A DNA stretch of 64,000 nt. It comes from Anaerolineales bacterium. GTDB lineage: Bacteria > Chloroflexota > Anaerolineae > Anaerolineales > UBA11579. The DNA is taken from positions 1,193,984 through 1,257,983 of the forward strand of contig CAXXOS010000001.1 of NCBI GenBank assembly GCA_963676155.2, written 5' to 3'. Position numbers: made by a program. Positions 27,001 to 30,000 of this stretch are shown here, piece by piece (position 1 is the stretch's first letter; every line of letters starts with the position of its first letter).

Positions 27001-30000
27001 TATAACTCCTAAATAAATAATAAATTAATAAAATTTGAATCTTTAAATAAAATAAAAACAGCTATTCCAAGATTGGAATACAATGCAGAACAAAATCAAC
27101 TTAATTTGTTGATTTGTTTTGGATTAGATTGAGGGGTTGGTCTGGATTTGGCGGAGAGAAATTCTACAATCTCCGCCGGTATCACCATACATTTTCTTGG
27201 TTTTCATTAATTACCTCATCTTTTTGTTAATGTGAGTTGTCTAACCAGTGACAAGGCACATTATTCACTTTTCATCACTTGTCCTGACTGTCACCAGTAA
27301 GTTTTGATGATGAAATTAATTTCGATGGGAAAAACAAAGCCCGTGAAAAGGCTTTAGAGGCATCCGCTGATGATTCGATTTTCTGATACTAAAAAGTATC
27401 ATTAGCTTCCTGCTGGAAGAACCTCCACCTCGTAGACTTATTTCAGAAATAAGTCCCATACGCTATTTTCCCGTATTTAATTTAATGGAATTATCTTAGC
27501 AAATGGATGAATTGTTGTCAAGATTGTTGCTAAGACGTTAATTTTAAATTTTATTTTTTATGACAAATTAATCCCTTGAGATAATCTCCTTCAAGGAAAT
27601 TTAGGCTGACTGGATGGCAAGCACTTTGAGTCATGCGATGTGAGATGGCCGCATCTACTTTGGCATCGAGTGCTGCTCCTGCAATAATTTGTTGGAATAA
27701 TTTGGCATCAACACCCCCAGAGCAGGAGAATGTGAAAAGGGTCCCCCCGGGGTTGAGCAATTTAAAAGCAAGTAAATTGATATCTTTATATGCACGAGCT
27801 GCTTTGGTGACGTGTTTGTTTGTGGGGGCAAATTTGGGAGGGTCTAAGATGATGACATCGAATGATTTTGCCTGATCTCGAAATTTTCTGAGAATTTTGA
27901 ATACATCCTCTTGGAGTATCTCCACTTTGTCAGGTGAAAAATTATTTAAGGCGATGTTTTGTTCTAGAATTTTGAGTGCTTCTTGCGAGCTATCTATGCT
28001 GACTATTTCTTTTGCTCCTGCGGCGAGTGCATTTAGTGTGAAGCCGCCGGTATAAGAAAAACAATCGAGAACAGTTTTGTCTTTTGTAAATTTTTGAAGA
28101 AGATTCCTATTTTCTCTTTGGTCATTATAAAATCCAGTTTTTTGGCCTTCTGCGAAGTTGACATAATATTGGATTCCATTTTCATTGATAGTGATGGGGA
28201 GATCTGTATTCCCAAAAACAAAACCTTCTCTTAAAGGAAGATTTTCTAAAACGCGGACTTCATCTGTCGATTTTTCATATATCCATGAGGGGGTATCAGT
28301 GTTTTGAAGGATCTCAAAGAGAGTATCTTTCCATTTTTCTGCACCAGCTGATAGGATTTGGACAACATAACCAGTGTTGAATTTGTCGACGATGATTCCG
28401 GGAAGATTATCTGATTCAGCATGAATTAGGCGATAGGCATTTGTGTGGGAAAGGTTAATTTTCTTTCGAAAGATAAGCGCTTGTTCGATCTTTTCTTTGA
28501 TGAAATTTTTATCAATTTTCTGGCTTGAATCAAATGTCCAGACTCTTGCTGCAATTTGTGAATGAGGGCTAAAGGCCGCAATTGCGAGAGGGGTGTTATT
28601 AAATTCCACAATTTGAACAGTGTCACCAATATCTGGATTGCCAATGATCTCTTTGATGGCACCTGAGAAGATCCAAGGATGTTGTTTTTTAATTGAACGT
28701 TCACGACCTTCTTTGAGACGAATAATGGGAAGAGAATTTGTCATTGGATTCCTTTAGATAATTATGTTTTATTTTGAGCTAAGTAAATCTATAAATTGTT
28801 GTTCGGATAAGATGGGTATGTTTAGTTCTTCTGCTTTGGTAGCTTTGCTGCCCGGATTGTCACCAATAAGAACATAGGATGTGTTTTTGCTAACTGATGA
28901 GGTTGGCTTTCCGCCGTACTTTAAAATTGTTTCTTTGATTTCTGTACGAGAGAAGTTTTGCAAGGTGCCTGTTACGACAATTGACATTCCTGATAGTACT
29001 TGGGGAAGAGAGGGTTTATCCTTACTCTCAATTTGAGGATCAATTCCAGATAAAATAAATTCTTTTATCATATTTTGATTTGTGGGTGATGCGAACCAGT
29101 CCACTAAGGCAGATGCTATATTGGGACCGATACCTTCAATATTTTCTAATTCTTCTTGAGTGGCCTTAGAGAGTTCGGTGATATTTTTGAAATGAGTTGT
29201 AAGTTCTTGCGCTACTACTTCTCCAACTCCACGGATGCCTAAAGAAAAGATAAATCGGTTAAGTGATTGAGATTTGCTTTTTTGAATTGATTCTATGATA
29301 TTTTCTGCCTTTTTTTCTGCAAAACCTTCAAGATTAATAAGATCTTCTTTTGATAGTTTATAGATATCGGCAGGGGATTGAATCAGTTTTTCTGCTATGA
29401 GTTGTTCAACAATTTTGATGCCGAGACCGACTATATCCATCGTGTTACGGGCTACAAAATGCTCTATATTGCGGATAAGTTGTTCAGGACAGGCAGCATT
29501 TACACAGTAGTAGGCTACCTCGCCTTGTGGGTGTTCAATTGGTTCACCACATTCAGGGCATGTTTGTGGAGGGATATATTTTTGCTCTACTCCGATGCGG
29601 TTGCTGGTGAGGGGACCAAGAACGTAGGGAATGACATCGCCTGCTCGTTTGATGAGAACGCGATCACCGATCCGGATATCTTTTTCTTTAATGAAATCAA
29701 AGTTATGTAAGGTTGCTCGACTGACAATTACACCGCCAATCTGGACAGGTTCAAGCTCAGCGAAGGGGGTTAGCACTCCTGTGCGTCCTACCTTGACCCC
29801 GATATTTTCTAATTTTGTGGAAACTTCTTGGGCGGGGAATTTCATTGCGATGGCACCACGAGGGTCTTTGCCAACAATGCCGAGGCTATCTGCTAGTTCC
29901 ATGTCATTTATTTTGACAACCATGCCATCAATTTCATATGGGAGATCATCTCGAATTTCAATCCACTTATTATAAGCTTGTTCAAGGCATTTTATATTTT

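What a model noticed while it worked through the whole genome (the two positions that open the first line are those of the whole stretch)
27260..27475. glmS-ribozyme variant class controlling glutamine synthetase (nitrogen regulon)
Besides the usual glmS ribozyme ahead of glmS (C3:527964-528176), a second RNA of the glmS-ribozyme fold lies on the minus strand in the 5' leader of glnA (glutamine synthetase, C2:1219648-1220982). It belongs to a sequence-distinct class widespread in Anaerolineae, in which the conserved C4 after the cleavage site is replaced (AGCG-GCU/ACU/UAU-G instead of AGCGC), that precedes glnA, glutamate-synthase-like and ammonium-transporter genes and usually carries a downstream intrinsic terminator: likely a nitrogen-status riboswitch derived from the glmS ribozyme.
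Evidence so far: Rfam RF00234 49.4 bits, over the gathering cut, full length. RF00234 search of 151 Anaerolineales genomes: 97 with a match, several with two copies. In 66 parsed loci, 17 of 17 glnA-linked copies have non-C at position 4, against 0 of 47 other (mostly glmS-linked) copies; 2 lie before glutamate-synthase-like genes. A pattern for the variant hits about 460 stretches in GTDB (estimate), the 80 listed nearly all Chloroflexota; of 120 loci the next gene was glnA in 63, glutamate-synthase-like in 9, glmS in 1, AraC-type hits in 2, no match to this genome's proteins in 14 (one read by eye as an ammonium transporter), too short in 31. Hairpin+U-run terminator in 39 of 63 glnA-linked vs 6 of 47 othe [...]
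(Added by a program. Inside this text positions count along the whole contig: contig position 1,193,984 is position 1 of the stretch shown here. "Call 12" and the like, gene names such as g00115 and contig names such as C1 are that model's own, and its searches are not shown. The text may have been shortened before it was handed on; [...] marks where a part breaks off. The agent that wrote the report below was given it as the finding of a first reader that could run no searches.)

Follow-up and report, generated by a model that had tools for sequence, protein, structure and literature searches.

The report
Self-cutting RNA switch for nitrogen genes
A second copy of the self-cutting glmS RNA sits in front of glutamine synthetase here and of nitrogen-assimilation genes in many related bacteria, where cutting, likely triggered by the usual amino-sugar signal, is predicted to release a clamp and let a transcription terminator form, a control mode not found in the papers searched.

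Summary
Confirmed: a full-length glmS-ribozyme fold (RF00234, 49.4 bits) leads the genome's only glnA; a second copy leads glmS. Of 123 non-C4 relatives, 100 precede glnA, glutamate-synthase-like or amt genes directly or within an operon. They form one lineage, mostly Anaerolineales (37 of 111 genomes).

Corrections: the 'C4 change' is a shifted bulge or U-G wobble in helix P2.2 and is not diagnostic. Four C4 copies lead glutamate-synthase-like genes, three non-C4 copies lead glmS, and the catalytic and ligand-pocket bases are kept. GlcN6P is therefore likely still the ligand, read as a nitrogen-sufficiency proxy.

New: a covarying helix (P0) clamps the leader 5' of the cut to the P3-P4 linker. 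That linker can instead pair with a downstream GGAAGGG, which otherwise forms a covarying antiterminator. The matching terminator is in 66 of 108 non-glmS copies and 0 of 60 glmS copies. Cutting would thus trigger termination.

This window's copy keeps P0 but lacks the terminator. Ligand, cleavage and regulation are untested; published mutants mimicking the shifted bulge cut 300-3000-fold slower.

The parts
27493..27521 (-). sigma70-like promoter, TTGACA-17-TAAGAT; transcript predicted to start near 27485, giving a 5' cleavage product of about 20 nt
   Evidence: 10 of 12 matches; identical in sister genome L010; a conserved start-like motif lies 17-22 nt before the cut in 81 of 123 non-C4 copies
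27466..27472 (-). P0 5' strand (GGGAAAA), upstream of the cut; pairs with the P3-P4 linker
   Evidence: 7 bp, -9.4 kcal/mol; covaries across relatives
27463..27464 (-). predicted self-cleavage site, A(-1) at 27464 and G1 at 27463
   Evidence: alignment to the RF00234 consensus; cleavage itself untested
27456..27462 (-). P2.2 5' strand C2 G3 U4 A5 U6 G7 G8; U4 can wobble with G62
   Evidence: sequence; subtype table
27435..27455 (-). P1 hairpin
27422..27434 (-). U34, A35-G40 (with the general base G40) and P2 5' strand
   Evidence: role of G40 from PMC8495972
27383..27419 (-). two-hairpin insertion between P2 and P2.1; also in the glmS copy, so a lineage trait and not a trait of the variant
   Evidence: absent from variant copy L008
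27356..27382 (-). A50 U51 C52 G53 (cofactor pocket), P2.2 3' strand with G65, P2 3' strand
27336..27355 (-). P3 hairpin; its loop can pair with 27264-27269 (P3.1)
27323..27335 (-). pyrimidine-rich P3-P4 linker, the switching strand: P0 partner before the cut, downstream purine tract after it
27264..27315 (-). P4/P4.1 and the P3.1 3' strand
27124..27220 (-). GAUGAGG (27214-27220, where relatives have GGAAGGG; -6.4 kcal/mol with the linker) serving as ribosome site of a 27-codon uORF (27124-27207) that holds a strong hairpin (27150-27177, no U run)
   Evidence: start, length and stop kept in sister L010; function unknown
27063..27118 (-). two further hairpins followed by U-rich sequence; weak terminator candidates, not called by the terminator scan
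25665..26999 (-). glnA, type I glutamine synthetase, 444 aa
   Evidence: TIGR00653 555 bits; only glnA hit in the genome

Best explanation
This is a duplicated glmS ribozyme in the leader of glutamine synthetase that likely still uses glucosamine-6-phosphate (GlcN6P) to cut itself and would thereby switch nitrogen-assimilation genes off when amino-nitrogen is plentiful. GlmS makes GlcN6P from glutamine, so GlcN6P can serve as a proxy for glutamine sufficiency (inferred). In most members of the class the output is predicted to be transcription termination. Before the cut, helix P0 ties the short 5' leader to the 5' half of the P3-P4 linker, and the downstream GGAAGGG-N tract forms an antiterminator with the terminator's 5' arm and loop (ON). 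After the cut, the roughly 20-nt leader is no longer attached, P0 is lost, the linker's CCCUUCC takes GGAAGGG, the antiterminator weakens and the terminator forms (OFF). Shown: fold, gene link, conserved core bases, covariation of P0 and antiterminator, terminators confined to non-glmS copies. Inferred: ligand, cleavage, timing and direction. The copy in this window keeps the core and P0 but has lost the class terminator; its output is likely RNase J decay of the cut mRNA, perhaps with blocking of a 27-codon uORF's ribosome site.
For: Gene link: among 194 distinct Chloroflexota-type copies, the 123 non-C4 ones precede glnA 74, glutamate-synthase-like 16, amt 2, glnA or glt behind ada/eamA/MOSC genes 8, ada alone 1, glmS 2, unassigned 2, too short 18; the 71 C4 ones precede glmS 58, glutamate-synthase-like 4, a DegT-type aminotransferase 1, too short 8. 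Ligand unchanged: G1, C2, G3, G7, A35-G40, A50-G53, C60-G65 are invariant in the 92 variants (partly forced by my patterns); G65 is the base whose loss abolishes GlcN6P use (PMC5311495); C4/G34 cores lead glt genes and non-C4 cores lead glmS; selection failed to change the ligand of a glmS ribozyme (PMC1635283 abstract); bulge-shifted P2.2 rescues activity in vitro (PMC7125110). P0: own against cross-paired duplex energy -8.08 vs -7.11 (92 variants) and -10.35 vs -7.59 (56 C4), 0 of 5000 permutations each; nearest-relative swaps favour own pairing 21:5 and 16:5, controls 16:22 and 9:12; P0 of -7 or better in 108 of 148 against 7 of 99 ordinary metagenome ribozymes. Antiterminator: -12.85 vs -11.16, n=57, z -7.6, control on the 3' arm z -0.1; swaps 16:4, control 7:10. 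Linker-GGAAGGG helix has two-sided changes (CCCCUC/GAGGGG, CCUUUC/GAAAGG) and 0 of 5000 permutations, n=80. Terminator in 66 of 108 non-glmS against 0 of 60 glmS copies. The B. subtilis ribozyme can cut during transcription (PMC10810187 abstract). RNase J is present in this genome.
Against: In a Bacillus-type minimal core the nearest mimics of the variant register are slow with GlcN6P: C4G+A6C 2.2e-5 per s, and C4A+A6C about 1.9e-4 (24-fold rescue of 7.8e-6), against 6.4e-2 for consensus; G26U (G34 here) is 62-fold slower. The exact natural combinations were not among the rows found in the cut supplement. This weighs less than it seems, because the A5/A61 pair of Anaerolineae glmS copies is also made of singly damaging changes (C5A 2.4e-4, G53A 7.4e-5). 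The counter-examples are few: L329 is one contig, and L379/L380 appear to lack P4 and miss RF00234 at E 0.01. The linker-GGAAGGG helix fails the nearest-relative test (14:7 and 16:10), as does the anti-SD pairing of glmS copies (8:10). The folding model shows only a partial switch (antiterminator probability 0.86 to 0.55, drop over 0.3 in 22 of 57, direction built in), and the terminator wins at equilibrium in both states, so control must be kinetic. 42 of 108 non-glmS copies, this one among them, lack the platform by my finder. No biochemical or expression data.
Confidence: 0.6

Rival explanations
1. Changed cofactor: the remodelled P2.2 (shifted bulge, free position 34) retunes the pocket to glutamine or another nitrogen-status amine, making this a second natural coenzyme-dependent ribozyme class, with the same cut-then-terminate output.
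For: The gene context is a clean nitrogen regulon. P2.2 forms part of the cofactor site (PMC8495972). Positions 4-6 and 34 change together: G34 in 70 of 71 C4 copies, 2 of 25 U4, 49 of 98 purine-4. Mimics are 300-3000-fold slower with GlcN6P. Riboswitch variants with new gene contexts often have new ligands (general knowledge).
Against: Direct-contact bases are unchanged. The same P2.2 and position-34 changes occur before glmS (L329, L379, L380), and C4/G34 cores lead glt genes. Activators need adjacent amine and hydroxyl groups and ammonium does not work; glutamine has no such hydroxyl. Selection could not shift specificity.
Confidence: 0.17
2. Ordinary output: a GlcN6P ribozyme moved in front of nitrogen genes acts only through RNase J decay; P0 merely aids folding, and the terminator is controlled by something else or is constitutive.
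For: RNase J is present. This copy and 41 other non-glmS copies lack the class terminator by my finder. The switch is partial in the folding model. The linker-GGAAGGG helix fails the nearest-relative test.
Against: P0 and the antiterminator covary in kin-robust tests; the helices overlap so as to exclude each other; the terminator platform is found only with non-glmS genes.
Confidence: 0.12
3. Slow or non-cutting scaffold: the variant core binds a ligand or a protein without useful cleavage, and binding alone shifts P0 and the antiterminator.
For: Very low rates of the register mimics; a classical terminator/antiterminator platform is present.
Against: A(-1) is kept in 122 of 123 non-C4 copies, and G1 and G40 in all (partly pattern-forced). 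The P0 strand lies just 5' of the cut. The glmS fold changes little on binding.
Confidence: 0.08
4. Relic of a rearrangement with no regulatory role at glnA.
For: This copy lacks the class terminator and has a long A+T-rich spacer before glnA.
Against: The link holds across at least 9 families of the order, the core is conserved, the platform covaries, and the RNA is better kept than its flanks in the sister genome.
Confidence: 0.03

Closest known systems
glmS ribozyme-riboswitch (Rfam RF00234; B. subtilis, T. tengcongensis, B. anthracis)
   Same: Whole fold P1-P4.1, cut site A(-1)/G1, G40, A50-U51, G65, place in a 5' leader. RNase J is available.
   Different: Leads glnA, glutamate-synthase-like and amt genes; P2.2 bulge shifted or U4 wobble with free position 34; two-hairpin core insertion; extra helix P0; terminator/antiterminator platform. 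The reviews read describe only glmS control through mRNA decay.
Glutamine-I (glnA RNA motif) and glutamine-II riboswitches
   Same: RNA control of nitrogen-management genes (PMC9971707 passages).
   Different: Unrelated fold, no Rfam match here; they bind glutamine directly and do not cut.
Anaerolineae glmS-linked copies with P0 and anti-Shine-Dalgarno linker
   Same: Same insertion, same P0 clamp and switching linker.
   Different: There the linker targets the glmS ribosome site (mean -11.0 kcal/mol; covariation not shown in the kin test); in the nitrogen class it targets an antiterminator strand.
Bulge-shifted P2.2 and glmS-AAA/glmS-Ca laboratory variants (PMC7125110, PMC5311495)
   Same: Show that a bulge at position 4 can be partly active, and that U49A (present in nearly all insertion-bearing copies here) arises in cofactor-independent variants.
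   Different: The natural class keeps U51 and G65, whose change makes glmS-AAA cofactor-independent; rates of the natural combinations are unknown.

Membership tests
glmS ribozyme (RF00234) | Covariance-model match over the gathering score, full length | tested here: met
   49.4 bits against 37, positions 1-167
glmS ribozyme (RF00234) | Double-pseudoknot core (P2, P2.1, P2.2) with P3/P3.1/P4/P4.1 | tested here: met
   All helices can be drawn; P2.2 has a U4-G62 wobble and an A5/A61 opposition as in the Anaerolineae glmS copies
glmS ribozyme (RF00234) | Catalytic and cofactor-contact bases A(-1), G1, C2, G40, A50, U51, G65 | tested here: met
   Present here and kept across the class (partly forced by the search patterns)
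glmS ribozyme (RF00234) | Consensus C4 and G34 (G34 in the G34-G7-C60 triple) | tested here: not met
   U4 and U34 here; G34 in 2 of 25 U4 and 49 of 98 purine-4 copies against 70 of 71 C4 copies
glmS ribozyme (RF00234) | Lies in the 5' leader of glmS | tested here: not met
   Next gene is glnA; the genome's glmS has its own copy
glmS ribozyme (RF00234) | GlcN6P-dependent self-cleavage | not testable with these tools
   Needs an in vitro assay; published mimics are slow
glmS ribozyme (RF00234) | Repression through RNase J decay of the 5'-OH product | tested here: inconclusive
   RNase J gene present, 555 bits over cut-off; use untested
Glutamine-I/II riboswitches | Match to their covariance models | tested here: not met
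   No hit in the window at gathering score or in 26950-27600 at E up to 1
Altered-specificity riboswitch variant | Changed ligand-contact nucleotides | tested here: not met
   Changes are at 4-6 and 34, next to but not at the direct contacts named in the papers read
Altered-specificity riboswitch variant | Sequence change strictly tied to a new gene context | tested here: not met
   Strong but crossed both ways: 4 C4 copies before glt genes, 3 non-C4 copies before glmS
Terminator/antiterminator riboswitch platform | Mutually exclusive, covarying helices ending in an intrinsic terminator | tested here: met
   For the class. Not met for the window copy itself, which lacks GGAAGGG and the class terminator

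The most novel reading that the evidence does not exclude
The nitrogen-gene class has swapped its coenzyme: it cuts itself with glutamine or another nitrogen-status amine instead of GlcN6P and converts the cut into transcription termination through the P0 clamp. It would be the second natural metabolite-cofactor ribozyme class and the first natural self-cleaving ribozyme wired to a terminator.
Probability: 0.17. Interest if true: 0.95.

Novelty: new variant of a known kind. Interest (0 to 1): 0.8.

Why it matters
The reviews read describe the glmS ribozyme as the only natural ribozyme using a metabolite as coenzyme, and as a one-gene feedback device working through mRNA decay. Here it appears redeployed as the nitrogen-assimilation regulator of a whole bacterial order, with an expression platform in which the cut itself flips a terminator. 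That is a new way for self-cleavage to control genes, and it needs no nuclease. It offers natural P2.2 variants with which to ask whether the ribozyme's coenzyme can change, which laboratory selection failed to achieve. It also gives a compact cut-to-terminate module for synthetic biology. All the main claims can be tested with short in vitro transcripts.

Tried and rejected
RNA evidence: no RNA holder listed for the locus, so no reads were laid. McCown 2011 and McCown 2012 are not held; I recall that the 2011 abstract says all but two of 463 representatives lie in glmS mRNAs and that Deinococcus-Thermus variants carry extra core stems, but could not check it. The supplement of PMC11602151 could not be read. 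The source data of PMC7125110 are cut, and the exact natural triple and quadruple combinations were not among the rows found. Supplements of PMC5473149 were not opened and could list gene contexts. Viral contigs as a control: 66 pattern hits, only 3 real ribozymes; replaced by 117 metagenome hits, 101 distinct and usable. Rejected: the core insertion as a variant trait (present in glmS copies, absent from variant L008); position 4 as a ligand marker; the 17/17 against 0/47 table as independent evidence (one clade); C4 copies L081/L091/L129 as mis-called glmS (L081 carries a full Glu_synthase domain, 295 bits). Not shown: covariation of the anti-SD pairing in glmS copies in the kin test (8:10) and of the linker-GGAAGGG helix in the kin test (14:7, 16:10). 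Rows dropped: L153 (mis-parsed) and 15 unparsed loci; most were recovered by the relaxed parse, which counts distinct sequences only and mixes Rfam-drawn and pattern-drawn loci, so its ratios are not population frequencies. Seven or so weak RF00234 hits were not fetched, and 8 of the 38 matches had no locus in that call. P3 followed by the U run scores as a terminator in the window; I found no way for the cut to control it and left it open. No PII gene was found in this 96%-complete genome; one genome, context only. Literature searches that found no report of a glnA-linked or terminator-coupled glmS ribozyme: (open-access library only).
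Full report
OBSERVATION. Rfam RF00234 matches window 27260-27475 on the minus strand over its whole length at 49.4 bits, cut 37. 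The genome holds two matches; the other precedes glmS. The gene behind this copy is a type I glutamine synthetase (TIGR00653, 555 bits), the only glnA hit in the genome. A sigma70-like promoter lies about 30 nt before the predicted cut between 27464 and 27463, so the 5' product would be about 20 nt. Both copies carry a two-hairpin insertion between P2 and P2.1. It is a lineage trait, found in glmS- and glnA-linked copies alike and missing from one variant copy (L008).

THE CLASS. I gathered copies by RF00234 (47 of 61 relatives with a match; 23 of 71 phylum-wide), by a GTDB pattern that leaves position 4 free (120 loci, about 600 stretches estimated) and by a non-C4 pattern. A relaxed parse gave 194 distinct copies. 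The 123 non-C4 copies precede glnA (74), glutamate-synthase-like genes (16), amt (2; Pfam), glnA or glt behind ada, eamA or MOSC genes (8), ada alone within the stretch held (1), glmS (2), unassigned genes (2), or are too short to tell (18). The 71 C4 copies precede glmS (58), glutamate-synthase-like genes (4), a DegT-type aminotransferase (1), or are too short (8). These samples are mixed, so the ratios are not frequencies. The glt-like genes come in a long form with a full Glu_synthase domain (295-313 bits) and a 480-aa form with only a weak hit. The non-C4 pattern is in 37 of 111 Anaerolineales genomes but 3 of 127 genomes of other Anaerolineae orders. With positions 4-6 masked, a tree of 129 cores puts all 79 non-C4 rows on one side of a 100/98 branch, with one long-branch C4 row among them; the bootstrap had not settled and the root is a midpoint.

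WHAT THE C4 CHANGE IS. The 3' strand of P2.2 reads AUCAGCGG in both groups. GCUG and ACUG copies pair C5-G62, U6-A61 and G7-C60, so the bulge moves from position 6 to position 4 (or 3). UAUG copies, this one among them, are the local glmS type CAUG with a U4-G62 wobble. Position 34, a G in 70 of 71 C4 copies, is G in only 2 of 25 U4 and 49 of 98 purine-4 copies; it forms a triple with G7-C60 (PMC7125110, sections read). G1, C2, G40, A50, U51 and G65 are kept (partly forced by my patterns). G65 matters most for GlcN6P use (PMC5311495 passages). The signature is crossed with gene context both ways. A metagenome copy with GCUG and U34 (L329, 61 bits) lies directly before glmS, and so do two UAUG copies (L379, L380), though these appear to lack P4 and miss Rfam. 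Four C4/G34 copies lead glutamate-synthase-like genes. Among 101 ordinary metagenome ribozymes, 99 have C4. Against an unchanged ligand: in a minimal consensus core C4G+A6C cuts at 2.2e-5 per s and C4A+A6C at about 1.9e-4 (my arithmetic from a 24-fold rescue of 7.8e-6) against 6.4e-2, and G26U is 62-fold slower. The paper itself reads the rescue as a bulge shift that improves activity, and the A5/A61 state of the local glmS copies is equally poor as single changes, so these rates do not carry over simply. Selection failed to alter the ligand (PMC1635283 abstract), and activators need adjacent amine and hydroxyl groups (PMC8495972 passage). I put GlcN6P at roughly 3 in 4.

THE PLATFORM. Nearly all insertion-bearing copies have a pyrimidine linker between P3 and P4 whose 5' half pairs with the purine tract just before the cut (P0). 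Own pairs beat cross pairs in 92 variants (-8.08 vs -7.11 kcal/mol) and 56 C4 copies (-10.35 vs -7.59), 0 of 5000 permutations each, with null controls. Swapping between nearest relatives, which reduces the effect of kinship, favours own pairing 21:5 and 16:5; controls give 16:22 and 9:12. P0 reaches -7 or better in 108 of 148 of these copies and 7 of 99 ordinary ones. In nitrogen-gene copies the linker's 3' half, CCCUUCC, complements a GGAAGGG about 30 nt before a terminator hairpin. Two-sided changes occur (CCCCUC/GAGGGG, CCUUUC/GAAAGG), the permutation test passes (0 of 5000, n=80), but the kin test does not (16:10). The 3' end of that tract pairs with the terminator's 5' arm and loop: -12.85 vs -11.16, z -7.6, n=57, control on the 3' arm z -0.1; kin test 16:4, control 7:10. 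The class terminator is in 66 of 108 non-glmS copies, including 3 C4-glt copies, and 0 of 60 glmS copies. In glmS copies the linker instead complements the ribosome site (mean -11.0; kin test 8:10). Scan notes e1-7110932 and e1-6940401 describe that glmS form on other DNA; I saw it independently first, and such notes are not evidence.

MECHANISM (inferred). Uncut: P0 holds the linker's 5' half, the antiterminator forms, and the polymerase reads through. With cofactor: the ribozyme cuts during transcription, as the B. subtilis RNA can (PMC10810187 abstract); the short leader is lost, the linker invades GGAAGGG and the terminator forms. A folding model gives antiterminator probability 0.86 with P0 and 0.55 without, a drop over 0.3 in 22 of 57. 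The direction is built into that model, and the terminator wins at equilibrium in both states, so the switch must be kinetic. GlcN6P is made from glutamine by GlmS, so a high level would signal nitrogen sufficiency and turn off glutamine synthetase, glutamate synthase and ammonium uptake.

THIS COPY. It keeps the core and a 7-bp P0 (-9.4) but has GAUGAGG in place of GGAAGGG (-6.4 with the linker) and no class terminator. GAUGAGG is the ribosome site of a 27-codon uORF kept in the sister genome, followed by hairpins with U-rich tails. RNase J is encoded. The likeliest output here is decay of the cut mRNA, perhaps with uORF-coupled attenuation; this is the weakest part of the reading.

NOVELTY. 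Eight searches of the open-access library found no glnA-linked or terminator-coupled glmS ribozyme. Passages of three reviews describe only glmS control by decay, and passages of a tandem-riboswitch survey mention no such platform. McCown 2011 and 2012 could not be read, and unseen supplements may list some of these copies. Verdict: a real, new variant of a known kind, with a new regulon and a predicted new output; interest 0.8.

Noticed in passing
L002 and other C4 loci (G000:C3:527964-528176): The glmS-linked Anaerolineae copies also have P0, and their linker complements the glmS ribosome site: a predicted cut-triggered translational OFF switch.
   Followed up: partly
L255, L268, L290, L301; L275, L289: Ordinary C4 ribozymes in metagenome contigs precede nagB-like genes (4) or a GlmU-like acetyltransferase (2), both read by eye from the N-terminal sequence, instead of glmS.
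   Followed up: no
L085 / L367: A C4 copy precedes a DegT/DnrJ-family sugar aminotransferase operon.
   Followed up: partly
L093, L095, L104, L113, L082, L115, L103, L377: Ada-like DNA-repair and EamA/YedA exporter genes are inserted between the ribozyme and glnA in several genomes; in L054 and L125 MOSC and DinB genes precede the glt-like gene.
   Followed up: partly
L036:647-2089, L041:415-1851: A 480-aa glutamate-synthase-like protein with only a weak PF01645 hit, related to the N-terminal half of a longer form of 750 aa or more that has a full domain; its function is unclear.
   Followed up: partly
window 27383-27419 and relatives: The first inserted hairpin has a GNRA-like loop in 143 of 194 copies and is followed by a conserved CUAAC...GAAAA element that recalls a tetraloop receptor (recalled resemblance).
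   Followed up: partly
L281, L315, L319: A few insertion-free ribozymes in metagenome contigs also carry a strong P0, so the clamp may not be limited to insertion-bearing copies.
   Followed up: partly
L379, L380: glmS-linked U4 ribozymes that appear to lack P4/P4.1 yet keep P0; missed by Rfam. Rfam also missed variant copies in G049, G046, G009 and L400.
   Followed up: partly
window 27335-27356: P3 followed by the U run of the linker scores as an intrinsic terminator in this copy.
   Followed up: no
G000 whole genome: No PII (GlnB/GlnK) gene found in this 96%-complete genome.
   Followed up: partly
L363-L366: C4 ribozymes of other Chloroflexota families change otherwise constant core positions (GUUCGG for AUCGA, GCGGGGAG), possibly another subtype.
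   Followed up: no
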